In this document: piece after piece, positions 21,134 through 50,302 of the stretch
Position numbering within the stretch: position 1 is the stretch's first letter
Layout of the letters: every line of letters starts with the position of its first letter
Source of the DNA: a virus
Length of the DNA stretch: 64,000 bases
Virus record (IMG/VR): IMGVR_UViG_3300046779_001754
Span: 1 to 64,000 of that record
Strand: one strand, 5' to 3'
The notes under the pieces: model-generated
Database searches by the model: none
What the model was told of the DNA's origin: nothing
Seen by the model: only the letters and a program-made list of their open reading frames with translations
Position numbers and translations under genes: made by a program

Positions 21134-21144
21134 TGTGATATTTA

Positions 21145-24713: not shown

Positions 24714-25017
24714 AAACTATCTTAAATTACCCGAACGATTTGTAATGCATAATCTCAATAGGTCCTCACAGTACACTGAAAAAGTTATCTTGCATAGTTT
24801 TACCATCGGTGATGTTGAAGATCCAATGCTGTATGCAGCACCGCCTATTGGCGAATGGCAACAAACTGAAAAAGGTCAGTGGTGTATGCAGCATTGTGAA
24901 GGTGAAATAGTGTTCCACAGCATGCAAGATCACATTGGCTGGGGTTACAAAATTGTACTACAGGGCGCATTGAGCCCTAAAAATCTAACTTATTTTCAAT
25001 TAAAGTGGGGCAAATGA
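24706..25017 (+). CDS. hypothetical phage protein
   Basis: GDVEDPMLYAA; C-terminal TYFQLKW. Confidence 0.7.
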   Translation: MAKNYLKLPERFVMHNLNRSSQYTEKVILHSFTIGDVEDPMLYAAPPIGEWQQTEKGQWCMQHCEGEIVFHSMQDHIGWGYKIVLQGALSPKNLTYFQLKWGK

Positions 25018-25979
25018 AAATCCTAGTTACCGGAGGCCTGGGACTTATTGGTCACAATGTAGTACAGATTCTCAAAAAACAGGGTCATAAAGTGTCTATC
25101 ATCGACAACATGACCAACTATGGTGTAATACCCCAGAACGAACTTGATTATCTCATGCGAGAGCGCAGAGCCAAACTACCGCTGTCTGTGTGTCATTACA
25201 CCGATGATATTGCTCGAGCAGAATCAATTGACAGTATTTTTCTAGCTGAATGGCCTGATATTGTCATACACATGGCTAGTTTTCCCCGACAAAAAGTAGT
25301 CAATGCAGATCCGCGACGCGGCGCTAGAGTAATGACCGAAGGCTTGATAAACCTGTTAGAAAGTTCAGTGACTTATCAAGTAAAAAGATTTGTATACATT
25401 TCAAGTTCAATGGTCTACGGACCGTTTAATAACGACACTCGAGAAGATGCAGTTTGTCGTCCACAAGGACAATATGGTATACTAAAACTTGCCGGCGAAG
25501 ACCTAGTAAAAGATTACGCACGTCGCGGGTGTTTTGATTATACTATAATTCGCCCCAGTGCGGTATATGGACCATTAGATGTTGAGGATCGTGTTATATC
25601 ACGATTTATGATGCAGGCCATGCGTGGTGGCGTATTACAAGTAAATGGTGCCCTTGAATCATTGGACTTTACCTATGTTGATGATGCTGCCCAAGGTATA
25701 GCCGCTGCCAGCACTGCTGATACAACTGCTAATCGCACATATAATATCACTAAGAGTCACGCCTACACACTGTTGCAAGCAGCAAAAATGATCCTTCAAT
25801 TAGTAGGTAGTGGCACTATTGAAATTGGAGATCGTGATCCTGATTTTCCTAGTCGCGGGTCATTGAATTGTGATGCTGCTCGTCAAGACTTTGGTTACGA
25901 TCCACAAGTAGATGTTGCTGAAGGGTTTGAACATTATTATCAATGGTTATCGTCAAGCTCTTATCATAAATGGGCATAA
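25014..25979 (+). CDS. NAD-dependent sugar epimerase/dehydratase (extended SDR)
   Basis: ILVTGGLGLIG, SSSMVYG, YGILK. Confidence 0.93.
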   Translation: MKILVTGGLGLIGHNVVQILKKQGHKVSIIDNMTNYGVIPQNELDYLMRERRAKLPLSVCHYTDDIARAESIDSIFLAEWPDIVIHMASFPRQKVVNADPRRGARVMTEGLINLLESSVTYQVKRFVYISSSMVYGPFNNDTREDAVCRPQGQYGILKLAGEDLVKDYARRGCFDYTIIRPSAVYGPLDVEDRVISRFMMQAMRGGVLQVNGALESLDFTYVDDAAQGIAAASTADTTANRTYNITKSHAYTLLQAAKMILQLVGSGTIEIGDRDPDFPSRGSLNCDAARQDFGYDPQVDVAEGFEHYYQWLSSSSYHKWA

Positions 25980-26596
25980 AAATACTTGTTGTCAGCGCAC
26001 ATCCCGACGATGCAGAAATTGCCTGTGGTGGGACCTTGCGTCGCTACCAAGAACAAGGCGCTGAAATTGTCAGTGTAGTCGCTGTGCAGCCCAGTACTGA
26101 AGTTAATCCAAAACGAACACATGCCATTGTCAGCCAAGAACTTGAGAACAGTTACAAGTTAAGCAGATGGAATCTCAAAATATTTCCAACACCGTTGCAT
26201 TCAGGTGGTAGACCAAATCTTGTGACAGACAATGTCACAATGACCGGACTAGAAAAATTACTAGAACCCTGTGATATTGCAATTATACCCAATCCCGAAG
26301 ACAGTCATCAAGATCATAGAGCCACTTACGAACTAGCATACCCGTATGTTCGTCGACACGCACAGCAAACTTGGTTAATGCACAGTTGGCCTTATTGTCA
26401 TGATTATAATCATGCCGCTAATCATTATGTTGAAATTTCCAAGCAATGGCAATTCAAAAGACAACTGTTAGAATGCTATGCCAGCTATCTATCCACAGAA
26501 GCTGTTTCTCAAATTTACACTGCCAATCAATACTGGGCACAAAAGAATAGACAAATACTCTCAGAATGTTTTACAATAGTAAACTCTTATGAATAA
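25970..26596 (+). CDS. PIG-L/LmbE-family deacetylase
   Basis: AHPDDAEIACGG, HQDH. Confidence 0.9.
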   Translation: MGIKILVVSAHPDDAEIACGGTLRRYQEQGAEIVSVVAVQPSTEVNPKRTHAIVSQELENSYKLSRWNLKIFPTPLHSGGRPNLVTDNVTMTGLEKLLEPCDIAIIPNPEDSHQDHRATYELAYPYVRRHAQQTWLMHSWPYCHDYNHAANHYVEISKQWQFKRQLLECYASYLSTEAVSQIYTANQYWAQKNRQILSECFTIVNSYE

Positions 26597-27635
26597 GATA
26601 GAACTATTTCAAACTGCCAAAGTCTGGGACCAAATACGTGATAGAGTCTGGGAAATGACCAACGATGCGCACCAAGAAGGTCGCGCACAAAATTCACGCA
26701 TAGTAAAAAGTCTTGAAAGCAGATTGGCTACTCAGTATGGTCGTCAATATTGTGTTACAACTGCCAGTGGCACTGATGCATTGATCGTTGCAATCAAATG
26801 CCTACAGTTGCCTCCTCAAAGTCGTATTGCAGTAGGCACATATACCTTCGTTGCCACAGCTCATGCCATTGCTCGAGCAGGACACATTGCTATACCAGTA
26901 GACATCAGTGACAACTATTGTATCAATTGGCATAAAATACCACCATGTGATGCTGTTGTAGGTATTGACATATTTGGTAACTCCTGTGACTGGAATGCCA
27001 TACGTCGTCTTGGAGTTCCTGTTATCTGTGATGCTGCACAAAGTTTAGAGAGTGTGGACCGAGAAGGCTATTCAAGTTTGCAACATGGTTTCATAGCTTG
27101 TACTAGTTTTGCGCCCAGCAAACCCATTAGTAGTTTTGGTAGTGGCGGAGCCTTGTTAACCGACAATGCCACAGTCAACGATCTTGCTCAAGAATATCGA
27201 ATTCATGGTAAAACTCAAAGCGAACAGGCCTGTCGTGATTCAGGACTAAACAGTATGATCAGTAGCTTTGAAGCTGCTTGTGTTCATGCCGGCATTGAGC
27301 ACAGTCAAGCATGGCAAGATCGTAGAATTAAAATTACAGAATACCTACTGGACCGCAGTCATTACATGAGTCCTTTAGATCGTAATCTCAAAAGACACAG
27401 TTACAGTAAATTGGTTTTCCGCAGCACCGAACGCGACCGGACTATAGAAAAATTGCACATGGCTGGTATTGCCACTGCCATACACTATCCTAGGTTAATA
27501 CATCAGGAACCCTTGTATCAACAATTGGATCAATGTCCTGTTGCTAGTGCTGCTAGTCAAATGACATTTACAGTACCAAACCAACATACACTCACCGACA
27601 GTGAAGTAGAACGCATTGCTGAGGCACTACAATGA
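26589..27635 (+). CDS. DegT/DnrJ/StrS sugar aminotransferase
   Basis: SGTDAL, TFVAT, DAAQS, SFAPSK(PLP)..GSGGA. Confidence 0.92.
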   Translation: MNKIELFQTAKVWDQIRDRVWEMTNDAHQEGRAQNSRIVKSLESRLATQYGRQYCVTTASGTDALIVAIKCLQLPPQSRIAVGTYTFVATAHAIARAGHIAIPVDISDNYCINWHKIPPCDAVVGIDIFGNSCDWNAIRRLGVPVICDAAQSLESVDREGYSSLQHGFIACTSFAPSKPISSFGSGGALLTDNATVNDLAQEYRIHGKTQSEQACRDSGLNSMISSFEAACVHAGIEHSQAWQDRRIKITEYLLDRSHYMSPLDRNLKRHSYSKLVFRSTERDRTIEKLHMAGIATAIHYPRLIHQEPLYQQLDQCPVASAASQMTFTVPNQHTLTDSEVERIAEALQ

Positions 27636-28594
27636 ACATATTAATACTAGGAGGACACGGATTTATCGGACACAACGTGGCTCGCATGTTAAAAGACTGC
27701 TCCCATCAAGTCGCCACAGTTGACTGTCATCATCAATACGGGGACTATCCCTGGTGGGAATATTATCCTGTGCTAGATCAACGATTAGATCTTATAGGAA
27801 AGCATCAACATTTTCAAGGCAATGTCAGAGACGAAGCATTTATGACCATGGTGTTTGAAGAAGTGTCTCCGGATGTGGTCATAGATCTCGCTACCTATCC
27901 CAATGCTAAAATGGTCCAACGTAACATTGTTGATGCTACAGAAAACATGATCACTGCCACAGCCCTGGCTCTTAAATTGTCAACTCAATACAGTGTTCGC
28001 CGTTTTGTTCTAGCATCGTCAAGCATGGTCTATGGTGAGTTTGGTAATACTCCACCTGATGAAACTGCTGTATGTAATCCCATGACGTTGTATGGCAGTT
28101 ACAAATTGCAGTGTGAACAGATGTGCAAGATATTTGCTGCCAACTCTGGCTTAGAATATACCATATTAAGACCCAGTGCATTATATGGTACTAGAGATAT
28201 GATCGTGAGAGCGATTAGTAAGATGACTGTGTCGGCAATTACACAGGGTAAAATTGTTGTCAACGGCGCCGACAATCGACTGGATTTTAGTAATGTCATT
28301 GATGTAGCTCAGGCATTTGTCTGGGCCAGCACCGAAGCTGCTTGCGCCAATCAAATATATAACTGTACTCGAGGTCGTGGACGTCGTATTATTGAAGCAG
28401 CGGAAATTATACAACAATACATTCCGGCCAAGATTGAATTGCAACCACACGACAGTTTTTATCCCAATCGAGACACACTCAACAGTGATAAACTGCAAAA
28501 TCACACAGGATGGCGGCCATCAATAGATATTGAAACCGGTATAGGGGAATATATTCAATGGCTTCAGGATCAAAGTTATATCAATCGGCTCTAA
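27632..28594 (+). CDS. NAD-dependent sugar epimerase/dehydratase (paralog)
   Basis: ILGGHGFIG, SSSMVYG, YGSYK. Confidence 0.92.
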   Translation: MNILILGGHGFIGHNVARMLKDCSHQVATVDCHHQYGDYPWWEYYPVLDQRLDLIGKHQHFQGNVRDEAFMTMVFEEVSPDVVIDLATYPNAKMVQRNIVDATENMITATALALKLSTQYSVRRFVLASSSMVYGEFGNTPPDETAVCNPMTLYGSYKLQCEQMCKIFAANSGLEYTILRPSALYGTRDMIVRAISKMTVSAITQGKIVVNGADNRLDFSNVIDVAQAFVWASTEAACANQIYNCTRGRGRRIIEAAEIIQQYIPAKIELQPHDSFYPNRDTLNSDKLQNHTGWRPSIDIETGIGEYIQWLQDQSYINRL

Positions 28595-30188
28595 GCCAAA
28601 GTTGGAATCCATGACGTTGTTCAAACCATTGCTTTAACCATGCCCAGTCAAAGCTCAACAACAATGCATCATAACTTCCGTTGACTTCGCGATAATATTC
28701 CAAGGCATCTTGCGCACCCTGTAATACCCATTCAGCATTGTCTCCTTGAGCATGATTACACCATGTATCAAGTCTGTGTTGTATTTCAACGTCGGCGCCT
28801 AGATCAACCTCGCGACGAAGCTTTAACACTTCTCTAAATGCGCTGCGCCAGCTGACCCAAGGATCAGTGTTAAATCGTGAGATACTGGCCACGGTGGGTA
28901 CTACTTCGTGTGCCGAACTCAATGTAAAGTCCAGACCCGGCCTGGTATCCAATGTAAGTTGTCGATTGTACAAGTTAATATTCATAGCACCATATTCTAA
29001 TCCGTTCACAGGATTACGACTATAAAATATATAATGCTTTGGTGCTTGCATACGATCAGGTTGGAAATCAAACTGAAAGGTTGGCAACACTTCAGTCTTG
29101 GCAAACACAGCAAAGAACCACGGCGTTTTGCTCATATCAGCAGCAGCCTTGTAAGCAGCTTCGCGTCCCGTAACTCCGTCGCTGCGTTGGGCTCTTGGGC
29201 ATAGTTCTTGAAGATTATGCCAGTTTGCTTCGGCCATGGGTTCACCATTACTGATAAAAATCACATCTTGCAAACGATCTTCAACTATGTTGGCGTGAGA
29301 TTTGTCTATATAGGGATAATCGTATAATTGTGTTTGTATCATAGGTGCTGCCACTTGCGGTACTATCACTGCTGATGCGCCTATGCTCAACGGCATAATA
29401 GTTTTAGTTTTTCCGCGCCAAAGATTTACTGTGGGCAAAGGACGATCAATATTTGTTGTAGTAAATATTTCCAATGGTGCTTGGAAAGTATGTTCTTTTA
29501 CAACATCAATGTGCGTGTCTCTTTGATGATAATTCACAGGCATGTGATGTCTTGGCACTGCGATGTCCTGAACAAAATTCAAAGAATACCAATCTAATAA
29601 TTCAACATCGTCTAATCTTGCCTGCGCACTAGGTACATGCATATAGAATGTGTCTCCAAACTTTTGATCTCCGCTGGCAAACACATGAATCATGTCCGAC
29701 TGCCACGGCTCAGGATGCCACGAAAAATCAAAATTGGTATAATCACAGATACTGCTAGTAATCCATACATGTTCGGTCACAGCATTCTTGGCAATACGTC
29801 GCAATGTGTCAAGATAATTGTCAACGTATCGAGTGCGCTGGCTAAACTCTACAGTTGGTGGATTGAGATTGCCGTGATCAATGTAAACTATGTTATTGTC
29901 GGCTCGTCGGAGAATTTGTTGAACATGATAGTTTGTATCTTCGAAGCCTGCCGTGGGCACTAGTTGCGTTCCTCCGTCAACTTGCCACTGGCTAGGCCAT
30001 ACATGACGTTGTTCGCTTTCCCAAGGTTTTGGTTCCCAAAGAAAATCAAAGTCAGTGTAGTCCGATAAGTAGTTTACTATCCAAAAAAACCGTGTGCGGC
30101 TTTTAACCGAAGCATCAGCTAAATTTATAGCAGATTGTTCATGCGGGAACAGTCCAGGTTTACATCCAAAGTAAAATACATCAAACAT
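28581..30188 (-). CDS. putative glycosyltransferase-like protein with internally repeated domains
   Basis: Repeated DYT.FDF.W.P.PW unit; C-terminal WRSAFRE..K shared with 47237-48142; start placed at MFDVFY. Confidence 0.55.
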   Translation of the reverse strand: MFDVFYFGCKPGLFPHEQSAINLADASVKSRTRFFWIVNYLSDYTDFDFLWEPKPWESEQRHVWPSQWQVDGGTQLVPTAGFEDTNYHVQQILRRADNNIVYIDHGNLNPPTVEFSQRTRYVDNYLDTLRRIAKNAVTEHVWITSSICDYTNFDFSWHPEPWQSDMIHVFASGDQKFGDTFYMHVPSAQARLDDVELLDWYSLNFVQDIAVPRHHMPVNYHQRDTHIDVVKEHTFQAPLEIFTTTNIDRPLPTVNLWRGKTKTIMPLSIGASAVIVPQVAAPMIQTQLYDYPYIDKSHANIVEDRLQDVIFISNGEPMAEANWHNLQELCPRAQRSDGVTGREAAYKAAADMSKTPWFFAVFAKTEVLPTFQFDFQPDRMQAPKHYIFYSRNPVNGLEYGAMNINLYNRQLTLDTRPGLDFTLSSAHEVVPTVASISRFNTDPWVSWRSAFREVLKLRREVDLGADVEIQHRLDTWCNHAQGDNAEWVLQGAQDALEYYREVNGSYDALLLSFDWAWLKQWFEQRHGFQLWLRAD

Positions 30189-31287
30189 GATCAGAATTGA
30201 CGAAATATACAATCATACATTTTGGCCTTTTATTCAAAAAAACTTACCAAGAACTCGCATGTGGTATTGTGATCCACCAGGATATTCTGGTGTAGAGTAT
30301 CTCAATATTCATGATACACCAGGTGAAGACTTTTATTATGTATTCTTGTTTGATCAAGAACCAATTAATTTTCGTCGTATGCAACCAATGACACAGTATA
30401 TCTATACTAATCAAAATAATACACTTAGGAGTCCCGGTCGCGGTGCTATTGTCACAAGCGAATTTAATAGTAGCACAGTTGATAGAATATGTCAACTTTA
30501 CGACTGGGATAGTTATTACTATTTTTTCAACGGTTGGGCAGCACTTGATTGGTTTAGAGGCTATGACAAAACATTTATAACCACTCCAATTCAAGAACGT
30601 AAGATCAAACATACCTTTATATCTCCCAATCGTATTATCAGTGGTGAAAGACATCATAGACTACTGCTGTTATATCATTTGTTTAAACAGGGTCTAGGAC
30701 ATAATCTTATAAGTTGTCCGGAAAAATGCCCAGCAGGTGATATTCATACAATTGATGTTGCCAGAAGTCTTGAACACATATATTCAGACATTGTTAAAGT
30801 ATTCCAGCAAGCACAGTTACCGATGCATCTTGATAGAGATGCGCCAAGTTATGCCAGTGCTACACTAGACTTACACGATGAATCTGCTGAATGTTTATTA
30901 TATCTTGTTACGGAAACCGTGGGATCAGGACAACGTTTACACTTAACTGAAAAGATTTTCAAACCAATTTGTATGCAAATGCCGTTTGTGCTGGCCAGTA
31001 CAAAAGGAAGCTTGGCATACCTACGTAGTTACGGATTTAAAACTTTTGGTGATATATGGGACGAAAGTTATGATAACGAGCCCGATGACCGTTTACGCAT
31101 AGTTAAAATTGCCGAGTTGCTGAGATGGTTAGAAGATCAAGGTACTCGTCGTCAAGACATATTTGCACAATGTCAGGATATTATCCTACACAACTTCCAA
31201 CATTTTTATAATGGAGGCTTTGAAAAAATTCTCTGGCACGAACTGCAAGGAATGCTCAATGACATGCGAATTAAATTTAGTATTTGA
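30187..31287 (+). CDS. putative glycosyltransferase (GT10/fucosyltransferase-like motif)
   Basis: ET...LTEKIFKPI...PF...GFKTF...DESYD. Confidence 0.55.
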   Translation: MIRIDEIYNHTFWPFIQKNLPRTRMWYCDPPGYSGVEYLNIHDTPGEDFYYVFLFDQEPINFRRMQPMTQYIYTNQNNTLRSPGRGAIVTSEFNSSTVDRICQLYDWDSYYYFFNGWAALDWFRGYDKTFITTPIQERKIKHTFISPNRIISGERHHRLLLLYHLFKQGLGHNLISCPEKCPAGDIHTIDVARSLEHIYSDIVKVFQQAQLPMHLDRDAPSYASATLDLHDESAECLLYLVTETVGSGQRLHLTEKIFKPICMQMPFVLASTKGSLAYLRSYGFKTFGDIWDESYDNEPDDRLRIVKIAELLRWLEDQGTRRQDIFAQCQDIILHNFQHFYNGGFEKILWHELQGMLNDMRIKFSI

Positions 31288-35770: not shown

Positions 35771-35771
35771 G

Positions 35772-35873
35772 TTATTTGTAAATGAAAGGATCTCTCTTGC
35801 GCAATTCGCGCAACTTACGTCGATAACGTATTTCTAATTTTAGTGCGTCCCACCACTTGCGTATGAACTTCAT
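35772..35873 (-). CDS. 33-aa basic peptide ending KRDPFIYK (not in ORF track)
   Basis: MKFIRKWWDALKLEIRYRRKLRELRKRDPFIYK; ATGA overlap upstream, 1 nt from the carbamoyltransferase start. Confidence 0.75.
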   Translation of the reverse strand: MKFIRKWWDALKLEIRYRRKLRELRKRDPFIYK

Positions 35874-42059: not shown

Positions 42060-42762
42060 ATATTTTAATTAATTGTTTGGCTATGTGTTGATGCCCTTGC
42101 ACATTGGGATGACAATACCCGGGTTTTACATATTGATCTAAATAATAACTTTGCTCATTCCATTGCGAATTCGTTATTACTGGTCTATCACTGTCTACAA
42201 CAGTACCCGATTGATTGTCAATTAGGGGCATAATTAATTGCGAAATACATTGATCCCTGGGCAGTAACCAAGATTCTTTGGGAACTAGATCAATCATTGT
42301 GAGGGGTTCGGTAGTGAATAAATTCACAAACCAACATTTTACACCCAAACTCTGACACCAAAGCCATAGTAAGTTTACAGCACAATCATAATTGTACAGC
42401 CTTTGTGTTGGTGTGTCAAAATATTTGTACCATAAATTGGATTCTGCGTGTACATGAGCATTGTAGTTTGGTCCAGGAATAATTTGTTCTGGAATACCTT
42501 GCTCGTTAAAAATTGCTGTTCGGTGGCTTGCACTTAGGCAAAAGAATACCTGGTCATTGGCATCTAGCTGGTTGACAATTTTTGCAAATTTCCATGGGAT
42601 GATATCTGGGCTAGATCCAGATTCACCTAAATTAACACAGTCAGCAGAGTAATGATCGCTAAACAATTTTGCAAAAACATATTGCTTTCTTTCTGCATAC
42701 GCAACTGTGAGCTCTAGCTCGTCGCCAACTAACCAGCTATCACCAAACCAATAAAATTTCAT
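42025..42762 (-). CDS. SGNH/GDSL hydrolase-like protein
   Basis: FGDSW, NLGESGSS, HPNVQGHQHIA. Confidence 0.7.
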   Translation of the reverse strand: MKFYWFGDSWLVGDELELTVAYAERKQYVFAKLFSDHYSADCVNLGESGSSPDIIPWKFAKIVNQLDANDQVFFCLSASHRTAIFNEQGIPEQIIPGPNYNAHVHAESNLWYKYFDTPTQRLYNYDCAVNLLWLWCQSLGVKCWFVNLFTTEPLTMIDLVPKESWLLPRDQCISQLIMPLIDNQSGTVVDSDRPVITNSQWNEQSYYLDQYVKPGYCHPNVQGHQHIAKQLIKIYERLRVPTADT

Positions 42763-43916: not shown

Positions 43917-44953
43917 ACAAATAAATTATCTTTTTTGGTGTGTTGCTCTTGAGCATACTCATAAAATCTATTGTGATTGTGTTCAAGTGCAGGCATCATT
44001 TCATAGTACAAATTCATGATGTCATTGCTAGTCAATGTAGTAAGATATTTGATTGCAGCAATCAATGTATCGTGTACTTGGTTTTCATTTATATCTTCAA
44101 ATTTAATACCAGGAAAATAGTGATTAAAAGTTCGGAACCCGTTGTCTCGCAACCAAGCATAGGTTCGAGTATTACCGTTTATCAAGAATGGACGTTTACC
44201 AATTATGGGTTTCCACTGTGTTTCACTAACAAAAATGTCATCCCAGGGCCAAAACTCTGTGGCACCTATGATATGTAAAAAGTGATTTTGCCAAACTTCT
44301 AAGTTATGTAAACTCAAAACGTCATGAGGTATACCAAACTCATCATCACTATACCAATGACCAGTGGATCTATAATCGTCAATTCGTTCGCCAATGCTAA
44401 AATATAAGTTGTTACTGGGATCCTGGTCGTAAATTACGTTAGGTTTACCAAGTGTAATTATGCCTACTTGATCTAATTTGTTTTCTACTAGTTTACGTAC
44501 AAACTCTACTCTATGTTGCCTAGGTTTACGATTGTAGTTACAATATAACCAACGCACAGACTTCAATGTGATATCTTCAACTGTGTAGGATTTAAAACTT
44601 GTTGCTAGTATTGGAGCAAAAAAATTATAGTGATACTTGGTATCAAAGTTGCCTATTTTAAACAAACAGGGATTACCTAGATGTCTGACAATTTCACTGA
44701 TTTGTTGAGGATTGATCATTGGTGGATCAACAGTGGCCAACAAAAACAAATTGTCAAAGGTTTTGTTAAGTTTTTGATAATCTACCCAAGAGTGATTTGG
44801 GAATTGTGGGCCAAACCAAGTAAGGTTAATGATTAGATTTTGTTTATCAGCAAAGTGTAGGTTAACTTGATTCTTGAGTGATTCAATGCACTGCATTTCG
44901 TGCATGCCCCAGAGACAGTCCTGGCTGAAGTGTGTTCCAATATAATCAAGCAT
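43913..44953 (-). CDS. putative glycosyltransferase (GT10-like, divergent)
   Basis: NRKPRQHR; FVSETQWKPIIGKRPF...GFRTF. Confidence 0.5.
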   Translation of the reverse strand: MLDYIGTHFSQDCLWGMHEMQCIESLKNQVNLHFADKQNLIINLTWFGPQFPNHSWVDYQKLNKTFDNLFLLATVDPPMINPQQISEIVRHLGNPCLFKIGNFDTKYHYNFFAPILATSFKSYTVEDITLKSVRWLYCNYNRKPRQHRVEFVRKLVENKLDQVGIITLGKPNVIYDQDPSNNLYFSIGERIDDYRSTGHWYSDDEFGIPHDVLSLHNLEVWQNHFLHIIGATEFWPWDDIFVSETQWKPIIGKRPFLINGNTRTYAWLRDNGFRTFNHYFPGIKFEDINENQVHDTLIAAIKYLTTLTSNDIMNLYYEMMPALEHNHNRFYEYAQEQHTKKDNLFV

Positions 44954-46319
44954 AACTTAACGCTCTGCATTCATTCCAGAATGTTGCCATCCCAGGAAAC
45001 ACTTCAAGAAAATAGTCTCGGTTCAGACCAACTGATCTACGATCATATTCATTGAAGAATCTATAAAAGTCTGCACGATCACGTTTTATTTGTTCGGGGT
45101 CTTGTGGTTCCTGCATCCAATCAAGTGCTCGCTGCATACGTTGTACTTCATAATCTTTAAATCCCACAAAACTGTTGTCAGGCATTAGATTTTGTTGCAT
45201 GAAGTCTATGTGTTGCTGCATGCGTCGTTGATAACTTTCAGGAAGTATCTGTAGGCTTTGCCAACGTGGTTGTCGCAGAACCGGAGTGTCAAACCATATG
45301 CGTTGATAGGTGTGACTGTATCTTGAGCGAAGTTCTAATATGTAATCCAACAATTGATCTAGGCCTACCACACTGAGATTGTTGAGTGTAATGATAAAAG
45401 TAAGACTGTTTTTTGCCGGCACTTCTTCAAGGTACTGATTGATGTTGACTAGAAACTGTGTGGGATTTAGGCCTCTGCGAATGTACGCAGCCTGTTGCCA
45501 GTCTCCGGTATCAACACTGACGTATTGCATAAAATGTTCAATCTGTGTGCTGCACAGACGCTTGACGTAATCGAGGTACTTTGTGAATACCTCCCCGGGC
45601 ACACTGAAGTTCGAAGTTACGTTTAGATGCAAATCTGGTTTAGGCACAGCCAATACGTAGTCAAAAACTCTGTAAGTGTTTCGATCTAGCAGTGGCTCGC
45701 CACCAGTCATGCGGAAGTGTTGTAGCCGTGGGTATAATGTTGGCCACCATGCCCAGAAGGCATCAAGATATGGATTATCTTCTCTATTAGCAAGAGCTCG
45801 TCGACGACCGGTAAAATGGGAAGGATCATTATGAACAGTGGAAGTGGGATATCCTCCGTAGCGTCTAACTTCATCATCCCAGCTACTGCTAAACTGAGGA
45901 CTACAATAGGAGCACTTAAGATTGCAAACATTACTGAAATTGACTTCAACATAGGTTGGTATGACATCTTCATCTCCGGTTAGATTTCTAGGATCCATTG
46001 CGGCCCAGGGTTCGCCTGAACGATAGTGGCGATCACTTAACTGTCCTAGATCTTCCATGTTCCAGCAATATTGACATTCTGCAGGACGCTCGTTGCGCAG
46101 CATAATTTTGCGCTGTGATTTTTTATGCGGTGTGTTATGTAACACACTGGGATTGTCGGCTAGTAGGGCAACATCTATTTCATGTAGCGGAGGATGATAA
46201 CAACTATTGGTCATACCCGTGGTTAGATGCAGACTAACTTGTTTCCATTTAGCATAACACATTGCAGGACCAAGTTCCTGTTGTTTTTGCTGTGCTGCAC
46301 TCATAAATTCACTGCTCAT
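44946..46319 (-). CDS. radical SAM protein with N-terminal twitch-like domain (CxHP subtype)
   Basis: CYAKW..SCYHP..CQYC; CNLKCSYC; GGEP. Confidence 0.92.
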   Translation of the reverse strand: MSSEFMSAAQQKQQELGPAMCYAKWKQVSLHLTTGMTNSCYHPPLHEIDVALLADNPSVLHNTPHKKSQRKIMLRNERPAECQYCWNMEDLGQLSDRHYRSGEPWAAMDPRNLTGDEDVIPTYVEVNFSNVCNLKCSYCSPQFSSSWDDEVRRYGGYPTSTVHNDPSHFTGRRRALANREDNPYLDAFWAWWPTLYPRLQHFRMTGGEPLLDRNTYRVFDYVLAVPKPDLHLNVTSNFSVPGEVFTKYLDYVKRLCSTQIEHFMQYVSVDTGDWQQAAYIRRGLNPTQFLVNINQYLEEVPAKNSLTFIITLNNLSVVGLDQLLDYILELRSRYSHTYQRIWFDTPVLRQPRWQSLQILPESYQRRMQQHIDFMQQNLMPDNSFVGFKDYEVQRMQRALDWMQEPQDPEQIKRDRADFYRFFNEYDRRSVGLNRDYFLEVFPGMATFWNECRALSYA

Positions 46320-47244
46320 TACGCACCTTTAAAAAATCTTCAAGTGCTAGACCCATTAAAGTCTCATAGTTATGGTCTAATATGTCATTCATCTCTTGAT
46401 ACATTGCATATATCTCTTGTGTTGTCTTTGATCCAAGATATTCAAGTACACGGCTTATTTCAATGGGTTGGTGATCTGCAGGATCTTCACTGTAACCTTC
46501 GTCCCACCAACGATCAAATGTTTTAAATCCCATTGTCTTGAGGTTCTGTAGAAAATTTTGCGGACCTTGCACGATAAAAGGAGTGCGCATCGCAATTGGT
46601 CTCCAGATTTTTTCTGTGCAAAAAAATGTACTACCAGTAAAATAAGTTTCACAGACTATTTCAATAAAAAACTTTGCGTAGTATTCGGCAATGTCTAAAT
46701 GATGGTTGACAAGTATCGGATACTCAGATATAGAATCTAAAGTGATCGGAGCTTGTTGCAAAAATTCTGCAACCAATGGTAACGACTCTGCTCCGTATCT
46801 ATCAGCAAGTTTATCTAGTCCTAGATTTGATTTGTGAAAAACACTGTTTGGTCGCCAATGAAATGTTTGCAGTGTAGGATACTGTGATGCTAGAGCTGAC
46901 AAATATAATCTTGGAGCGTTACTTCGCCCAATAAAGATGCCAAATGTTTTGGCATCATGTTCTTTACCCGTGTTACCATCAAGCTGTTGTGTTGATTCAA
47001 CAAAATGCATAGGCGGTTGATACACTGTGTTGGGCCATGCGTATTCCAATGCATTGGATGTCACAATCTGGATACTGTTGGCTGTGCTGTATCTCAGCAG
47101 AGATTCAATGCCAAGACTGTCAAGGCACGGGCCTTCTGCACAAAAATCTATAACAACGTCTTGGGTGGTCCGTAGTTCGGCTGCTAGCTCATCACGGTTC
47201 CAAACCACTTCATCACTGGTATAAACTTTAATAGTTTTAGGCAT
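46309..47244 (-). CDS. putative glycosyltransferase (GT10-like)
   Basis: ETYF...TEKIWRPI..PF...GFKTF..WDEGY. Confidence 0.55.
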   Translation of the reverse strand: MPKTIKVYTSDEVVWNRDELAAELRTTQDVVIDFCAEGPCLDSLGIESLLRYSTANSIQIVTSNALEYAWPNTVYQPPMHFVESTQQLDGNTGKEHDAKTFGIFIGRSNAPRLYLSALASQYPTLQTFHWRPNSVFHKSNLGLDKLADRYGAESLPLVAEFLQQAPITLDSISEYPILVNHHLDIAEYYAKFFIEIVCETYFTGSTFFCTEKIWRPIAMRTPFIVQGPQNFLQNLKTMGFKTFDRWWDEGYSEDPADHQPIEISRVLEYLGSKTTQEIYAMYQEMNDILDHNYETLMGLALEDFLKVRNEQ

Positions 47245-48142
47245 TGCCCTCTCGTATCATTATACCTAAATTTTTCCAATTGGCTTGATAGTGGTGTTTG
47301 AAAAACTTACTATCATTGCCCATGGTAAAATTCATAGGCAGCGAAAGTTGTGTTGCAAGATCATCAGCTAGTCTGCCTGCTAGTACATCAGCAGTTTGAT
47401 CTTTGACTGTATCCCATAGTTTAATTAATTCATCAAAGTCTTGTACCTGGCGATAATCCCAGTTGGTCAACATTGTCATGTATGTGCCCATTCTAGCGCC
47501 GGCAATGGCCCAATCACCATGCGGAACATCACGACCAATGTTATGCCATATTGTTAGGTTATCTAGATTACGTTGTGCTACAAGGTCTTGAAATTCACTG
47601 ACACTGGGTCTGCGCCCACGATCCAGGCACATCTTAACCCCTTCGCGGAATCCTGCACGCCAGGCCTGAAAGTCTGTGGAATTGATATGTGTAGTTGAAT
47701 AACAATCATGCATTGCCCAATAACGTGGATCAAAACAAAACTCTACCGCAGTTTCATCTGTACCGTCACTGGCTTCGTGGGTACGCATCGTCATAACAAA
47801 CTCTCGAGTCCAGCAACTTATACCTCCGTTGCCATACATCAGTCCATTAACACTATTCCTAGCACGCCAGCGGAATACACAATCGCGGTTGGTATCATCC
47901 AATACCAGCTGACATGAAAAAAAGCTAATATCAGGGATATTGTCACCATCAATGAGCACAAAACGATCAGTGGACGAACCCATCGCTGCCGCTTTGTGAG
48001 CGGCGTCTGACCCTTTAATACCATCCACTCGTCTTGCCCAGGGTACCATGTTCCGAACATGCACCCAATTTTCCTCAGCATTTGGTTCATCATAAGTTAA
48101 AAATATACAATCTAAATCTGCAATATCAATTGTTTGATTCAT
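47237..48142 (-). CDS. putative GT-A fold glycosyltransferase
   Basis: FLTYDEPNAEENW, LIDGDN (DxD), WRAGFREGVKM. Confidence 0.6.
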   Translation of the reverse strand: MNQTIDIADLDCIFLTYDEPNAEENWVHVRNMVPWARRVDGIKGSDAAHKAAAMGSSTDRFVLIDGDNIPDISFFSCQLVLDDTNRDCVFRWRARNSVNGLMYGNGGISCWTREFVMTMRTHEASDGTDETAVEFCFDPRYWAMHDCYSTTHINSTDFQAWRAGFREGVKMCLDRGRRPSVSEFQDLVAQRNLDNLTIWHNIGRDVPHGDWAIAGARMGTYMTMLTNWDYRQVQDFDELIKLWDTVKDQTADVLAGRLADDLATQLSLPMNFTMGNDSKFFKHHYQANWKNLGIMIREGNA

Positions 48143-48461
48143 GTGTTTTTATCATCCATTTTGTGGCATTGGGATAATCACCAACTAACAATATATTGTT
48201 GGGGTGACATGCTATACCAGTGCTTCCTGGCGTTAGCTTTTTACTGATTATTCGTTTATACTTTACAAGTTCACCGTTGACCACTTTTACATGTGGACTG
48301 CCAATAAAAAATGTTTCAGAATCTACAGTAATATAGTTACCAGGTAAATCCTCCATGGTATACAATATAGGATCTCCGTTGTCATCGTAGTACAAACGAT
48401 GTTGGGGTTTATCAACACCGGGTACTGCATGTAATATATGCCAAAATTCTTCGGGTGTCAT
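48126..48461 (-). CDS. hypothetical protein
   Basis: Start MTPEEFW by ATGA overlap. Confidence 0.65.
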   Translation of the reverse strand: MTPEEFWHILHAVPGVDKPQHRLYYDDNGDPILYTMEDLPGNYITVDSETFFIGSPHVKVVNGELVKYKRIISKKLTPGSTGIACHPNNILLVGDYPNATKWMIKTHESNN

Positions 48462-49198
48462 GGTTGCCAATCTTTTGTATAGTAATGAAACGCTCCCCAC
48501 TGTGGCACGGTTTGTATCCGCAGTGGATCTGTTTCCCAGATCAACTCCTTGGTCCAATCCGCTGTGCGTATGGGAATAATATGCTGCTTCATATGCACAA
48601 TTTTAGGATAGGTGGCAAACGGCATAGTCACACGTTCGGGTCCGACAATCTGTGCAGCCATAGCATAAACAACATCTGTGCTGGGTTCATCATCAGGGAA
48701 CTTTAATAATTTACGAAACTCTGACCAATTGCCAAATATAGATCTAATCCAACGAAAAAATTCAGCGGCAGTATCACTGCGTCGCCAATAAGTCACAGCA
48801 TTGTACACATCAGGTAAATTATTCTGATCAAATAGTCGTCGATAAAATCTTACATTGCTGACGTTGTCATAGAAATCTCTACAACCTGTGCTGACAACAA
48901 CATCGCGATGCCTAAACATAGTCCACCAATGATCAATCGGTGATGCAATTAACATATCAGCTTCTAGTTTGATGGTTTCGTGATAAGGACTGAGACGATA
49001 AGCATAGTAATCCAGAGCTTGTCCTGTTTCCACAGTCTTGGGCAAGTCAGCATTGGTTAAAATAGTAATATTGACCGTGGGATGAAACTTTCTAATAGAA
49101 TCAGCTAATCGTTGGGCCAGGTCAGTGTAACAAACATCAGTGTCAAACGCTGGTATTACGTAACCTTGATTAGATGCTGGCTGCAACAATTTCTCCAA
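48458..49198 (-). CDS. putative nucleotide-diphospho-sugar transferase (GT8-like)
   Basis: SPYHETIKLEADM (DxD-like), STDVVYA, VHMK. Confidence 0.6.
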   Translation of the reverse strand: MEKLLQPASNQGYVIPAFDTDVCYTDLAQRLADSIRKFHPTVNITILTNADLPKTVETGQALDYYAYRLSPYHETIKLEADMLIASPIDHWWTMFRHRDVVVSTGCRDFYDNVSNVRFYRRLFDQNNLPDVYNAVTYWRRSDTAAEFFRWIRSIFGNWSEFRKLLKFPDDEPSTDVVYAMAAQIVGPERVTMPFATYPKIVHMKQHIIPIRTADWTKELIWETDPLRIQTVPQWGAFHYYTKDWQP

Positions 49199-49988
49199 GT
49201 TGCTGTTTATTCATAGCATGGAAGTCTAACCCTCTCCATCCAACTGACTTGGGTCGTCCAGATTTATCAATGTATTCAACTGTGTAATAGTCTTGATCAA
49301 TCTGTTGTAGTTTATCTTCAGGCATAACTGATGGCATCATACCTAGATAGTTAGAATCAGAACCACGGCTTGGGTATACTAATTTCAATGCAATACTTAA
49401 TGCAATGTCGTTACGATATGTAGGACGTTGTATTTTATAAATGTCCCTGTAGTGATCCCAATTATTTCTAATCATTTGCATAGAGTCAAAAACAAATCTT
49501 GCTTGATTGGTTCGATTGAATATCATGACTGTAGCCCATGACATTGGGTATTGATGTTCGCCAAATGTTTTTGAACTATCAAGGCGGTCTTGACTTGTTA
49601 GATCGTATGCTGTATGAAAGCACCAAAAATCTTGTCCGGGCATTAACAGCGGAGTTGACAATGAACTAGACGCTATTACATAATCAGCATCTAATACTAG
49701 AGTTCGATCCCAAGGAGTAACATTTAATGCGTTGGGTCGATTGGTATTGTACCAGTTCACTGTTTTGCCAAGATCATCAAAATACCGTTGCTCTGGATTG
49801 GGTTTATCTAAATGGATTACATGATCGAAACAGTGGTGTACAGAGTAAAGTGATGGCCCAGGATAATCAGTTACCAGTGCTACCGGTATGCACAAATGCC
49901 TGCGTATGTTTTTTGCGCTCCATGCAGCCATTCTAACATAGTCAATGTCATCGTTGTTATAGGCAAATATAAGAGCACCGGTTTTCAT
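49170..49988 (-). CDS. putative nucleotide-diphospho-sugar transferase (GT8-like)
   Basis: TPWDRTLVLDADY, RNDIALS, FHAMNK. Confidence 0.65.
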   Translation of the reverse strand: MKTGALIFAYNNDDIDYVRMAAWSAKNIRRHLCIPVALVTDYPGPSLYSVHHCFDHVIHLDKPNPEQRYFDDLGKTVNWYNTNRPNALNVTPWDRTLVLDADYVIASSSLSTPLLMPGQDFWCFHTAYDLTSQDRLDSSKTFGEHQYPMSWATVMIFNRTNQARFVFDSMQMIRNNWDHYRDIYKIQRPTYRNDIALSIALKLVYPSRGSDSNYLGMMPSVMPEDKLQQIDQDYYTVEYIDKSGRPKSVGWRGLDFHAMNKQQLGEIVAASI

Positions 49989-50296
49989 CGTTGTTGTCTC
50001 ATTTCTTCAAATTCCACAAGCCATGCATTCATTTGTTCTTGCCAACGACTAGCTGCTAGATTCCAAAGTTCCATTGTTTTTATTTTAACTGGATTCTCGT
50101 ATAAATCTAACAACACCACTTCTGCATCATCTGTAATACGACAATAACTTATAGTTGACAGTAATTCCGGGCCAGCACGCCACATGCCGCCGCGGTAGGC
50201 AAACAACATCTTGGCTTCATATTTTTCTTTGAGTAAGCGGCGAGCAGCTTCGTGGTCAAACCGAGCGCGGGCCTGCGTGATTAGATCAGAGTTCAT
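49985..50296 (-). CDS. hypothetical protein (first gene of the minus-strand modification operon)
   Basis: ATGA coupling to the next gene. Confidence 0.75.
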   Translation of the reverse strand: MNSDLITQARARFDHEAARRLLKEKYEAKMLFAYRGGMWRAGPELLSTISYCRITDDAEVVLLDLYENPVKIKTMELWNLAASRWQEQMNAWLVEFEEMRQQR

Positions 50297-50302
50297 TTGA
50301 TT

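What the first reader, a model, noticed from the sequence alone, without database searches (positions are those of the whole stretch)
25014..50296. ~25-kb radical-SAM/glycosyltransferase modification cluster abutting the tail genes
Seen: about 25 tightly overlapping genes: 2 SDR epimerases, DegT aminotransferase, PIG-L deacetylase, amidinotransferase, carbamoyltransferase, 2 SGNH-like, 5 GT10-like, about 4 GT-A-like and 5 radical SAM proteins, with no recognisable flippase, polymerase or membrane proteins. Inference: a cytoplasmic pathway building an elaborate modified glycan on virion proteins (as in giant viruses) or on DNA, rather than an O-antigen converter. The adjacent Ser/Thr-rich tail proteins are candidate acceptors.
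Basis: inference. Interest (0 to 1): 0.82.

Follow-up and report, generated by a model that had tools for sequence, protein, structure and literature searches.

The report
Phage radical-SAM and glycosyltransferase tailoring operon
A giant freshwater phage keeps, right behind its tail-fibre genes, about 25 kb of soluble sugar-transferring, radical-SAM, carbamoyl- and amidino-adding enzymes; these most likely decorate a protein with a heavily edited sugar chain, but the product has never been seen.

Summary
Window 25005-50296 carries about 26 tightly packed soluble genes. They include 2 SDRs, a PIG-L deacetylase, a DegT aminotransferase, an amidinotransferase and a NodU/TobZ-type carbamoyltransferase. 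There are also 5 N-terminal-twitch radical SAM enzymes (NF033640), 5 paralogs with a GT-B fold, and weaker GT-A-like and SGNH-like proteins.

Only part of the block is conserved. A core spanning about 34235-50296 sits in the same order next to the same virion genes in the related phage contigs. The amino-sugar block (25005-28594) is specific to this phage.

New points:
- The core has its own terminator plus a sigma-70/T4-early-like promoter, while the neighbouring structural genes carry a late-like motif.
- An unknown 361-aa protein has a cyclophilin-like fold with an inserted helical bundle, and elsewhere it is fused to this radical SAM family.
- In one MAG the same radical SAM family is fused to TPR arrays about 60 times.
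- A conserved 33-aa micropeptide precedes the carbamoyltransferase.
- Complete relatives lack hydroxymethyl-pyrimidine and TET genes.

Best reading (about 0.45): glycosylation and radical tailoring of a protein target, probably a virion fibre protein. DNA modification is unlikely.

This scan has already reported the same operon type on other DNA (at least 8 windows). I found no paper that describes it.

The parts
25005..25979 (+). SDR, NDP-sugar 4,6-dehydratase/epimerase-like (variable accessory block)
   Evidence: Pfam Epimerase 2.4e-40. Nearest NCBIfam is dTDP-glucose 4,6-dehydratase/GalE, below cut-offs. Homologs found in 3 of 80 relatives.
25970..26596 (+). PIG-L/LmbE-type de-N-acetylase (variable)
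   Evidence: Pfam PIG-L 2.3e-14. Homologs found in 0 of 80 relatives.
26589..27635 (+). DegT/PseC-type NDP-keto-sugar aminotransferase (variable)
   Evidence: Pfam DegT 3.8e-52. Nearest NCBIfam models are PseC, LegC and WecE types, below cut-offs.
27632..28594 (+). Second SDR, paralog of 25005-25979 (37% identity)
28581..30212 (-). 543-aa protein: N-terminal twin repeat of unknown kind, plus a C-terminal domain of the 47237 family (family C)
   Evidence: BLASTP to 47237-48142 at 3e-18. No Pfam match.
30187..31287 (+). GT-B-fold paralog (family A)
   Evidence: Paralogy. Fold of family member 46309.
31163..32446 (+). GT-B-fold paralog (family A). The true start is probably downstream of the listed TTG.
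32443..33204 (+). SGNH-like protein (motif only)
   Evidence: G-C-S-Y-T block near the N-terminus. No family hit below E 0.02.
33201..34238 (+). Amidinotransferase (AGAT/StrB1/SxtG superfamily)
   Evidence: Profile A8 against PDB: 6e-25 to 6e-19, with the catalytic Cys aligned. Paralog at 20252-21292.
34235..35770 (-). NodU/TobZ-type carbamoyltransferase; last gene of the minus-strand operon
   Evidence: Pfam Carbam_trans_N 5.6e-36 and Carbam_trans_C 1.7e-48. 45% identical to Ralstonia phage RsoM2USA gp199.
35772..35873 (-). 33-aa basic micropeptide ending ...RKRDPFIYK. Its ATG overlaps the stop of 35870-36955 (ATGA). Its own stop lies 1 nt before the carbamoyltransferase ATG.
   Evidence: Present in 47 of 61 related loci with a near-invariant C-terminal half. 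An unannotated copy lies in RsoM2USA at L001:19014-19136.
35870..36955 (-). 361-aa partner protein: cyclophilin-like beta-barrel with an inserted four-helix bundle that carries most of the conserved His/Glu/Asn residues
   Evidence: AF2 model pLDDT 94.8. About 25 cyclophilins at Z 8-10. No Foldseek PDB hit. Fusion with N_Twi_rSAM in P0378.
36930..38228 (-). N-terminal-twitch radical SAM 1
   Evidence: NF033640 5e-83.
38215..39456 (-). N-terminal-twitch radical SAM 2
   Evidence: NF033640 6e-100.
39437..40738 (-). N-terminal-twitch radical SAM 3
   Evidence: NF033640 5.5e-119.
40725..42059 (-). N-terminal-twitch radical SAM 4; ortholog in RsoM2USA at 48% identity
42025..42762 (-). SGNH-like protein (F-G-D-S motif); specific to this phage
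   Evidence: Lipase_GDSL_2 at E 0.02. Homologs found in 0 of 80 relatives.
42759..43916 (-). GT-B-fold paralog (family A), conserved slot
   Evidence: Homologs in 60 of 80 loci.
43913..44953 (-). GT-B-fold paralog (family A), variable
44946..46319 (-). N-terminal-twitch radical SAM 5
   Evidence: NF033640 1.6e-87.
46309..47244 (-). GT-B-fold protein (family A; the modelled member)
   Evidence: pLDDT 90.7. Foldseek finds GT10 FucTs and SPY. VIA gives T4 BGT Z 10.1 and HpFucT Z 9.5.
47237..48142 (-). Family C protein, possibly GT-A/GT2-like (lead only)
   Evidence: Homologs in 77 of 80 loci. Atlas cluster name. No PDB profile hit.
48126..48557 (-). 143-aa conserved protein of unknown function
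   Evidence: Homologs in 56 of 80 loci. No family match.
48458..49198 (-). Family E protein, glycogenin/GT8-like (weak)
   Evidence: Profile A4 hits only glycogenins in PDB, at E 0.1-0.9.
49170..49988 (-). Family E paralog
49985..50296 (-). 103-aa first gene of the operon, function unknown
   Evidence: Homologs in 64 of 80 loci.
50303..50350 (-). 9-bp GC-rich hairpin (50350-50327) with a T tract. It overlaps a -35 TTTACT (50331-50326). A -10 TAAAAT lies at 50308-50303, 6 nt before the ATG.
   Evidence: Conserved, with compensatory stem changes, in most of the 49 distinct related sequences compared.
50368..51333 (-). Ser/Thr-rich (30%) protein; candidate acceptor. It occupies the position of PA5oct gp360 (annotated ESI-MS/MS in that record).
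51344..52747 (-). Virion fibre-region protein. The late-like motif ATAAATAA lies at 52776-52769, just upstream.
   Evidence: tblastn to PA5oct gp359, annotated 'virion structural protein, ESI-MS/MS'. Motif.

Best explanation
The block is a self-contained, fully soluble tailoring operon.

Conserved core (about 50296 down to 34235, minus strand), in order:
- a 103-aa protein
- two glycogenin-like proteins
- a 143-aa protein
- a family C protein
- a radical SAM, then a GT-B
- four more radical SAMs
- a cyclophilin-like partner protein
- a 33-aa micropeptide
- a carbamoyltransferase

The core is transcribed from its own sigma-70-type promoter, which follows a terminator.

Lineage-variable genes are plugged in around the core. 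In this phage they are extra GT-B paralogs, an amidinotransferase, SGNH-like proteins and an NDP-4-amino-6-deoxy-sugar block.

Proposed mechanism:
1. The transferases use host nucleotide sugars to build a short glycan on a protein acceptor. The most likely acceptor is the Ser/Thr-rich fibre-region protein encoded next door.
2. The five twitch radical SAM enzymes then edit the glycan or the acceptor by radical chemistry. The cyclophilin-like protein may hold the substrate for them.
3. The carbamoyltransferase, with its micropeptide, and the amidinotransferase add carbamoyl and guanidino groups.

Shown here: the family and fold assignments, the conservation, the operon structure and the fusions.

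Inferred: the glycan itself, the protein target, every reaction of the radical SAM enzymes, and the timing of expression.
For: - Families and folds.
- All five radical SAMs keep the four N-terminal Cys, the CX3CX2C motif and the GGE motif.
- No membrane segments.
- Five complete relatives have no sugar nucleotidyltransferase (PF00483). Sugars must therefore come from the host.
- The core is syntenic in the 80 best loci, and the Ser/Thr-rich gene lies upstream in 49 of 51 loci with enough flank.
- The neighbours match genes annotated as virion proteins (ESI-MS/MS) in the PA5oct record.
- A protein target is suggested by the N_Twi_rSAM family being fused to long TPR arrays about 60 times in one MAG.
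- It is also suggested by the fusion of the family to the cyclophilin-like domain in P0378.
- Many of the GT-B structural neighbours are protein glycosyltransferases: SPY, GtfA/B, SdgB, EarP and HMW1C/ApNGT.
- In cultured cyanophage S-CAM1 the homologous carbamoyltransferase sits between two tail-fibre genes together with heptose-nucleotide genes.
Against: - No glycan or modified protein has been observed.
- The operon has a terminator and a sigma-70/T4-early-like promoter. The structural genes carry the late-like RTAAATAA motif instead. It is therefore not co-regulated with its proposed acceptor.
- The GT-A-like assignments are weak.
- The GT-B model matches T4 DNA beta-glucosyltransferase as well as it matches GT10 enzymes.
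- Relatives carry a halogenase-family gene and adenylating enzymes in the same slots, which points to non-glycan chemistry.
- In Vibrio phage K566 and in RsoM2USA the radical SAM genes are not next to annotated tail genes.
- The nearest solved radical SAM relatives act on nucleotides, nucleoside sugars or peptides alike.
Confidence: 0.45

Rival explanations
1. Peptide or small-molecule (RiPP- or natural-product-like) pathway. The radical SAM enzymes and tailoring enzymes would modify a peptide, possibly the conserved 33-aa micropeptide, or a small metabolite. The glycosyltransferases would decorate that product rather than a virion protein.
For: - SPASM/twitch radical SAM enzymes are typical peptide maturases.
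- The micropeptide is conserved inside the operon, with a variable Trp/Lys/Arg-rich N-terminal half and a near-invariant C-terminal half. It also occurs in RsoM2USA.
- TPR and cyclophilin-like fusions fit peptide binding.
- Relatives carry a Trp-halogenase-family gene (4e-92) and AMP-binding ligases next to the carbamoyltransferase.
- The combination of amidinotransferase, carbamoyltransferase with a small partner, and GDSL-type protein recalls the tailoring set of the saxitoxin cluster (PMC2679770; one search hit to SxtG).
Against: - No leader peptidase, exporter or recognisable RiPP recognition element was seen.
- The micropeptide lies immediately upstream of the carbamoyltransferase in 47 of 61 related loci, as a partner subunit would. 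Earlier scan notes on other genomes also describe it as the carbamoyltransferase's partner peptide.
- Five to ten glycosyltransferase-like genes are far more than known peptide pathways use.
- No core scaffold enzymes (PKS, NRPS) are present in the window.
Confidence: 0.2
2. Host-directed modification. The enzymes would be made early from a host-type promoter and would glycosylate or edit a host protein or envelope precursor. Candidates include flagellin, pilin or a receptor. The purpose would be takeover or superinfection exclusion.
For: - The terminator plus sigma-70-type promoter resembles T4 early promoters (-35 TTTAC, -10 TATAAT-like) and is conserved in most of the 49 distinct related sequences compared.
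- There is no late-like motif inside the cluster.
- The window carries other host-directed auxiliary genes nearby, namely pstS and a chaperonin.
Against: - There is no membrane-associated step, flippase or lipid-carrier transferase.
- Linkage to the fibre genes is strict (49 of 51 loci).
- The promoter class is inferred from sequence alone.
Confidence: 0.15
3. DNA hypermodification. The GT-B paralogs would glycosylate a modified base, and the other enzymes would tailor the DNA-bound sugar, as in the T-even phages.
For: - The best VIA match of the GT-B model is T4 beta-glucosyltransferase (Z 10.1, rmsd 5.5, 240 residues aligned), and T4 alpha-glucosyltransferase scores Z 8.4.
- The phage is T4-like.
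- The enzymes are soluble.
- An early-type promoter would suit DNA modification.
Against: - Five complete relatives (345-374 kb) have at most one thymidylate-synthase-family gene. Three have a high-scoring match (352-358 bits) and two have none. This window has ThyX instead.
- No TET/JBP gene was found.
- The Z scores for T4 BGT and the GT10 enzymes are tied within 1.
- TPR and cyclophilin-like fusions of the radical SAM family do not fit a DNA substrate.
Confidence: 0.08

Closest known systems
NCBIfam NF033640, N_Twi_rSAM (twitch domain-containing radical SAM protein)
   Same: All five radical SAM proteins score 273-398 bits, above the 170-bit cut-off. They have the N-terminal four-Cys auxiliary cluster domain ahead of the CX3CX2C core.
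   Different: I found no reaction or characterised member for this family in the library. Here it appears as five old paralogs (20-31% identical) in one operon.
Virion glycosylation in mycobacteriophages (Freeman et al. 2023, Cell Host Microbe; cited in PMC12619734)
   Same: Phage-encoded soluble glycosyltransferases lie next to structural genes. The proposed acceptors are Ser/Thr-rich virion proteins.
   Different: Those phages use one or two glycosyltransferases. They have no radical SAM, carbamoyl or amidino chemistry. In that case the glycans have been observed; here nothing has.
Giant-virus fibril and capsid glycosylation clusters (Mimivirus, chloroviruses) [own knowledge]
   Same: These are virus-encoded, host-independent soluble pathways. 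They combine NDP-sugar dehydratase and aminotransferase genes with several glycosyltransferases that decorate particle proteins.
   Different: They are eukaryotic viruses, with no radical SAM array, no carbamoyltransferase-micropeptide pair, and unrelated glycosyltransferase families.
NodU/NolO/TobZ/SxtI O-carbamoyltransferases, with the small SxtJ/SxtK partners of SxtI (PMC2679770)
   Same: The two-domain carbamoyltransferase passes both Pfam cut-offs. A tiny partner ORF is translationally coupled to it.
   Different: The 33-aa peptide has no hydrophobic segment. It gave no match to Pfam-A or to DUF5989. The substrate is unknown.
T4 alpha- and beta-glucosyltransferases (DNA hydroxymethylcytosine glucosylation)
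   Same: GT-B fold, with the best VIA Z score of 10.1. T4-like phage.
   Different: The complete relatives lack a hydroxymethylase or TET route to the acceptor base. Sequence identity is 7-8%.
Carbamoyltransferase/sugar clusters of Kyanoviridae (Synechococcus phage S-CAM1, Pelagibacter phage Mosig)
   Same: In S-CAM1 a homologous carbamoyltransferase lies between tail-fibre genes with nucleotide-sugar genes. In Mosig it lies with MoaA-annotated radical SAMs, a DegT aminotransferase and a methyltransferase.
   Different: Identity is only 26-30%. No DPFIY-type micropeptide was found there, and no family A, C or E proteins.

Membership tests
NF033640 N_Twi_rSAM | Whole-protein score above the curated cut-off (170 bits) | tested here: met
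   273-398 bits for all five proteins.
NF033640 N_Twi_rSAM | Auxiliary Cys-rich (twitch/SPASM-like) domain on the N-terminal side of the CX3CX2C radical SAM core, plus a GGE SAM-binding motif | tested here: met
   Invariant C34, C53, C94, C97, then C148, C152, C155 and G210-G211-E212 in alignment A6. Pfam SPASM matches at residues 9-98.
CAZy GT10 (alpha-1,3/4-fucosyltransferases) | Match to Pfam PF00852 Glyco_transf_10 | tested here: not met
   No Pfam-A hit up to E 10 for any of the five family A proteins. PF00852 found nothing in the phage record. More than 1,300 homologs carry no Pfam domain.
CAZy GT10 (alpha-1,3/4-fucosyltransferases) | GT-B fold closest to solved GT10 structures | tested here: inconclusive
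   Foldseek top hits are mango FucT13 and H. pylori FucT at about 1e-4. VIA ties them (Z 8.8-9.5) with T4 BGT (Z 10.1).
CAZy GT8 / glycogenin | Sequence-profile similarity over the nucleotide-binding half, including the DxD motif | tested here: inconclusive
   All 19 PDB hits of profile A4 are glycogenins, but at E 0.1-0.9. An invariant Asp lies in an L-D-A-D context. PF01501 found nothing.
Amidinotransferase (AGAT/StrB1/SxtG, guanidino-group-modifying superfamily) | Significant profile match plus the conserved C-terminal catalytic Cys | tested here: met
   E 6e-25 to 6e-19. The invariant C330 aligns with the G-G-F-H-C catalytic Cys motif of AGAT. H191 and D193 are also invariant.
NodU/TobZ carbamoyltransferase | Both the Carbam_trans_N and Carbam_trans_C domains above the gathering scores | tested here: met
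   125 and 165 bits against cut-offs of 24 and 27.
Phage virion glycosylation system | Glycan present on virion proteins | not testable with these tools
   Needs glycoproteomics of particles.
Phage virion glycosylation system | Glycosyltransferase genes linked to structural genes across relatives | tested here: met
   49 of 51 loci with enough flank. Synteny shown.
T-even type DNA glycosylation | Phage-encoded route to a hydroxymethylated pyrimidine (dCMP/dUMP hydroxymethylase or TET/JBP) | tested here: not met
   Complete relatives have at most one thymidylate-synthase-family gene (three of five; none in two) and no Tet_JBP. The window has ThyX.
RiPP pathway | Precursor peptide next to its maturase, plus a recognition element and a protease or exporter | tested here: inconclusive
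   A conserved 33-aa ORF is present. No protease, exporter or recognisable recognition element was found among the Pfam results.
SxtK/DUF5989 partner of carbamoyltransferases | Match to PF19451 | tested here: inconclusive
   No match. A 33-aa query is at the limit of detection, and the resemblance (C-terminal PFIY) is recalled from memory.

The most novel reading that the evidence does not exclude
The N-terminal-twitch radical SAM family, together with its cyclophilin-like/four-helix-bundle partner, forms a new class of protein-directed radical modification enzymes. Aquatic jumbo phages would use them, layered with glycosylation, carbamoylation and amidination, to make a post-translational decoration of virion or host proteins. 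No such chemistry is known in any virus.
Probability: 0.25. Interest if true: 0.9.

Novelty: new variant of a known kind. Interest (0 to 1): 0.72.

Why it matters
The core operon is common. At least 598 viral contig stretches carry it, and its partner protein has more than 6,000 homologs. It is strictly conserved in a widespread group of 345-374 kb freshwater phages.

Several of its proteins have no Pfam family, and I found no paper describing the operon. It contains five copies of a radical SAM family for which I found no described reaction. It also contains a partner protein with a cyclophilin-like barrel and an inserted helical bundle, and a tiny peptide coupled to a carbamoyltransferase.

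If the product decorates tail fibres, it would affect adsorption, host range and resistance to degradation in lakes. It would also extend virion glycosylation far beyond the simple cases known in mycobacteriophages.

The question is testable. Cultured Ralstonia phage RsoM2USA carries the radical SAM, micropeptide and carbamoyltransferase trio. Pseudomonas phage PA5oct has the same fibre module without the operon.

Tried and rejected
Searches that found nothing:
- Megablast of the 25 kb against cultured phages: no match.
- PDB profile searches for family A, family C and the 361-aa family: nothing meaningful.
- hhalign of family C against family E: no relation.
- ESM Atlas for the 361-aa protein: no usable hit.
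- Foldseek of its model against PDB: nothing at E <= 0.001. Against BFVD: ten uncharacterised phage proteins only, including one from Atu_ph07.
- PF00852, PF01501 and PF19451 against the phage record: no matches. PF02274 found only a third amidinotransferase-like ORF outside the window.
- The T4 late promoter TATAAATA is not enriched: 1 site against 4.2 expected. A guessed CTAG-TAA motif was not general.

Searches of limited use:
- The genome-contig scan with radical SAM 3 gave only three loci, all in MAGs. One (Haliscomenobacter MAG) is a phage relative.
- Distant phages K566 and RsoM2USA share only the radical SAM with this cluster near that gene. RsoM2USA also shares the carbamoyltransferase and the micropeptide.
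- Literature searches for N-terminal-twitch radical SAM, phage carbamoyltransferase or DNA hypermodification gave nothing specific. The 'moraphage' paper (PMC12619734) concerns another lineage.
- RNA evidence: one freshwater metatranscriptome holds only a 344-nt contig on 51331-51674, so nothing can be said about the operon's expression.

Considered and rejected: an O-antigen or capsule converter. There are no membrane proteins, flippase, polymerase or lipid-carrier transferase.

Full report
**Setting.** The window is the first 64 kb of a 100-kb IMG/VR viral record that CheckV rates as about 17% complete. It encodes DnaK/GroEL-type chaperones, PstS and a large HNH protein. Related contigs that are complete measure 345-374 kb. 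It is therefore a fragment of a freshwater T4-like jumbo phage.

**Observation.**
- ORFs from 25005 to 50296 are tightly packed and mostly overlap by a few bases.
- Pfam confirms two SDRs, a PIG-L deacetylase, a DegT aminotransferase and a two-domain NodU/TobZ carbamoyltransferase.
- Five proteins are radical SAM enzymes with a SPASM-like domain at the N-terminus. All five pass the curated cut-off of NCBIfam NF033640, 'twitch domain-containing radical SAM protein'.
- The five keep four N-terminal Cys, the CX3CX2C motif and a GGE motif, although they are only 20-31% identical to each other. They are old paralogs that all look intact.
- Fifteen of the 25 listed ORFs in the range had no Pfam hit at E <= 0.01. 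All-against-all BLASTP sorts many of them into families:
  - Family A: 30187, 31163, 42759, 43913, 46309.
  - Family C: 47237 and the C-terminal half of 28581-30212.
  - Family D: 33201 and, outside the range, 20252.
  - Family E: 48458 and 49170.
- No ORF has a membrane-like hydrophobic segment.

**Identifying the unknowns.**
- Family A has more than 1,300 homologs, none with a Pfam domain. An AlphaFold model built on a 46-sequence alignment is confident (pLDDT 90.7).
  - The model has a GT-B fold. Foldseek ranks GT10 fucosyltransferases and the protein O-fucosyltransferase SPY first, at about 1e-4.
  - VIA-align gives T4 beta-glucosyltransferase Z 10.1 (rmsd 5.5, 240 residues aligned), H. 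pylori FucT Z 9.5 (rmsd 4.3, 213 aligned), and FUT11 and FUT9 at about Z 9. These scores are tied.
  - 'GT10-like' is thus right as a fold neighbourhood. Membership of GT10 is not shown, and PF00852 does not match.
- Family D is an amidinotransferase. Its profile matches AGAT at 6e-25, StrB1 at 1e-20 and SxtG at 6e-19, with the catalytic Cys aligned.
- Family E gives only glycogenin hits, and weak ones at E 0.1-0.9, over the nucleotide-binding half up to the DxD.
- Family C has only an Atlas lead: a near-identical cluster is automatically named 'Glycosyltransferase 2-like'. It has no PDB profile hit.
- The two SGNH-like calls rest on the GDS-type motif and one hit at E 0.02.

**Conservation.**
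- One radical SAM (40725-42059) has relatives in at least 598 IMG/VR stretches.
- In the 80 best loci the order is kept: fibre protein, Ser/Thr-rich protein, 103-aa protein, E, E, 143-aa protein, C, a variable slot, rSAM5, A, rSAM4 to rSAM1, the 361-aa protein, then the carbamoyltransferase.
- The five radical SAMs are found in 80 of 80 loci, family C in 77, family E in 76, the 361-aa protein in 67 and the carbamoyltransferase in 61. Several loci are cut by contig ends.
- By contrast, the SDR/PIG-L/DegT/SDR block and the SGNH-like gene at 42025 occur in 0-3 of 80 loci. The 25-kb 'cluster' is therefore a conserved core of about 16 kb plus lineage-specific accessories.
- The slots between family C and rSAM5 (5 to 5,037 nt) and after the 361-aa gene vary in size. 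In relatives these slots, and the stretch beyond the carbamoyltransferase, hold extra family A copies, amidinotransferases, another radical SAM, AMP-binding ligases and a tryptophan-halogenase-family protein at 4e-92.

**The 361-aa protein (35870-36955).**
- It has more than 6,000 homologs and 677 representatives at 50% identity, none with a Pfam domain.
- One representative, P0378, fuses this domain to an N_Twi_rSAM that is 36% identical to rSAM3. This is a Rosetta-stone link to its neighbour rSAM1.
- A model on 93 sequences is very confident (pLDDT 94.8). It has no Foldseek match in the PDB.
- The exhaustive VIA search returns about 25 cyclophilins at Z 8-10, with 131-146 residues aligned across model residues 3-328. 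Four-helix bundles match residues about 60-170.
- It is therefore a cyclophilin-like barrel with an inserted helical bundle. The insert carries most of the invariant and near-invariant residues: H116, E120, N148, H152 and E155.
- Whether it binds a peptide, a metal or a small molecule is not known.

**A clue to the substrate class.** A MAG labelled Elusimicrobia holds about 60 copies of the N_Twi_rSAM domain, many in tandem. The seven fused copies examined all carry long N-terminal TPR arrays. TPR arrays and cyclophilin-like domains are typical protein- or peptide-binding modules. This favours a protein or peptide substrate for the family. The nearest solved radical SAM structures do not help: viperin, SkfB, BlsE, YydG and MoaA are a mixture of nucleotide, sugar and peptide enzymes.

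**Micropeptide.** Earlier notes of this scan on other genomes mention a 33-residue peptide beside the carbamoyltransferase, so I checked it here.
- Positions 35873-35772 (minus strand) encode a 33-aa basic peptide. Its ATG overlaps the stop of the 361-aa gene, and its own stop lies one base before the carbamoyltransferase ATG.
- The peptide is present in 47 of 61 related loci. Its C-terminal half is near-invariant and ends RKRDPFIYK. Its N-terminal half is variable and rich in Trp, Lys and Arg.
- An unannotated copy lies in the radical SAM/carbamoyltransferase cluster of cultured Ralstonia phage RsoM2USA.
- It may be a partner subunit, as SxtJ and SxtK are thought to be for SxtI (PMC2679770). 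I could not show homology.

**Transcription units.**
- After the stop of the Ser/Thr-rich gene there is a 9-bp GC-rich hairpin with a T tract. It overlaps a -35 TTTACT, and 17 nt further on there is a -10 TAAAAT, 6 nt before the ATG of the first operon gene.
- Among the 49 distinct related sequences, most of the 45 printed keep this arrangement. The stem changes by compensatory substitutions, the -35 is TTTAC-like and the -10 is TGTAtAAT-like. A strict pattern count found the -10 in 26 of the 49 and the -35/T-tract region in 39.
- This resembles T4 early promoters (own knowledge).
- The short spacing suggests a leaderless or nearly leaderless first gene.
- In contrast, the octamer RTAAATAA occurs only twice in the 64 kb, against 9.4 expected. 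Both sites lie directly upstream of structural gene starts, at 52776-52769 and 53557-53550.
- A TAAATAA-type motif occupies the second of these positions in the related loci compared. It looks like this lineage's version of the T4 late promoter.
- The operon is thus physically linked to the fibre genes but belongs to another promoter class. This is inferred from sequence only.

**Neighbours.**
- PA5oct has the same order: giant virion protein, a protein of about 200 aa, a fibre protein, gp359, then gp360. It has no tailoring operon after gp360.
- The window's giant 3,453-aa protein has FG-GAP and weak CBM5/12 matches.
- 50368-51333 is 30% Ser+Thr against a 12% mean. It lies upstream of the core in 49 of 51 loci with enough flank.

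**DNA modification.**
- Five complete relatives have at most one thymidylate-synthase-family gene. Three have a high-scoring match (352-358 bits) and two have none. This window has ThyX.
- None of the five has a TET/JBP gene. There is thus no evident route to a hydroxymethylated base.
- They also lack a sugar-1-phosphate nucleotidyltransferase, so the pathway must draw on host nucleotide sugars.

**Related systems.**
- In cyanophage S-CAM1 a homologous carbamoyltransferase lies between two tail-fibre genes with heptose-nucleotide genes.
- In pelagiphage Mosig it lies with MoaA-annotated radical SAMs, a DegT aminotransferase and a methyltransferase.
- This scan has already reported the same operon type in at least eight other windows, with the same open question. 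I found no paper that describes it.

**Verdict.**
- About 0.45: glycosylation and radical tailoring of a protein, probably a virion fibre protein.
- About 0.20: a peptide or small-molecule product.
- About 0.15: a host-directed modification made early in infection.
- About 0.08: DNA modification.

The product, the acceptor and every radical SAM reaction remain unknown.

Noticed in passing
window 35772-35873 (-); L001:19014-19136 (+): A conserved 33-aa basic micropeptide ending RKRDPFIYK is translationally coupled between the 361-aa gene and the carbamoyltransferase. An unannotated copy exists in cultured Ralstonia phage RsoM2USA.
   Followed up: yes
G007 (MAG CAIRTQ01, labelled Elusimicrobia), e.g. 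L091:7544-18329, L093:254-13840: About 60 copies of the N_Twi_rSAM domain occur in one 2.9-Mb MAG. Many lie in tandem and the copies examined are fused to long N-terminal TPR arrays. They sit beside an asparagine-synthase-like gene and a B12-binding radical SAM gene. This is an extreme paralog expansion of unknown purpose.
   Followed up: partly
window 52769-52776 (-) and 53550-53557 (-): The octamer RTAAATAA is depleted in the window (2 sites against 9.4 expected). It occurs only directly upstream of two structural gene starts, and a TAAATAA-type motif holds the second of these positions in relatives. It is a likely late-promoter motif of this phage lineage.
   Followed up: partly
window 50296-50310 (-): The conserved -10 hexamer ends only 6 nt before the ATG of the first operon gene, and no Shine-Dalgarno sequence is visible. 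The first gene may be translated from a leaderless mRNA.
   Followed up: no
window about 53399-53543 (-): A 46-aa ORF lies between the giant gene and the 201-aa gene. Its end overlaps the GTG start of 52795-53400. It is conserved in the related loci, with a shared P-N-E-x-G ... F-D-P motif.
   Followed up: no
L074:17715-20436 (+); L032:4157-5236 (+): Relatives carry an AMP-binding ligase and a tryptophan-halogenase-family flavoenzyme (4e-92) right after the carbamoyltransferase. Another ligase lies in the slot between family C and rSAM5.
   Followed up: partly
window 28581-30212 (-), residues about 40-190: The N-terminal half of the 543-aa protein holds two copies of a repeat with the motif D-F-D-F-x-W-x-P-x-P-W. 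No family matches it.
   Followed up: no
window 20252-21292 (-); G000:C1:88729-88914 (-): A second amidinotransferase paralog lies outside the reported range. A third amidinotransferase-like ORF lies beyond the window. That makes three copies in 100 kb.
   Followed up: partly
L083:16083-17186; L082:2303-3085: Some homologs of the 361-aa and family E genes contain a single in-frame stop inside the aligned region.
   Followed up: no
window 24027-24713 (+) versus G002-G004: This phage has ThyX. Three complete relatives have a high-scoring thymidylate-synthase-family (ThyA-type) gene instead, and two have none. I did not search those two for ThyX. The thymidylate synthase type appears to be swapped within the lineage.
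   Followed up: partly
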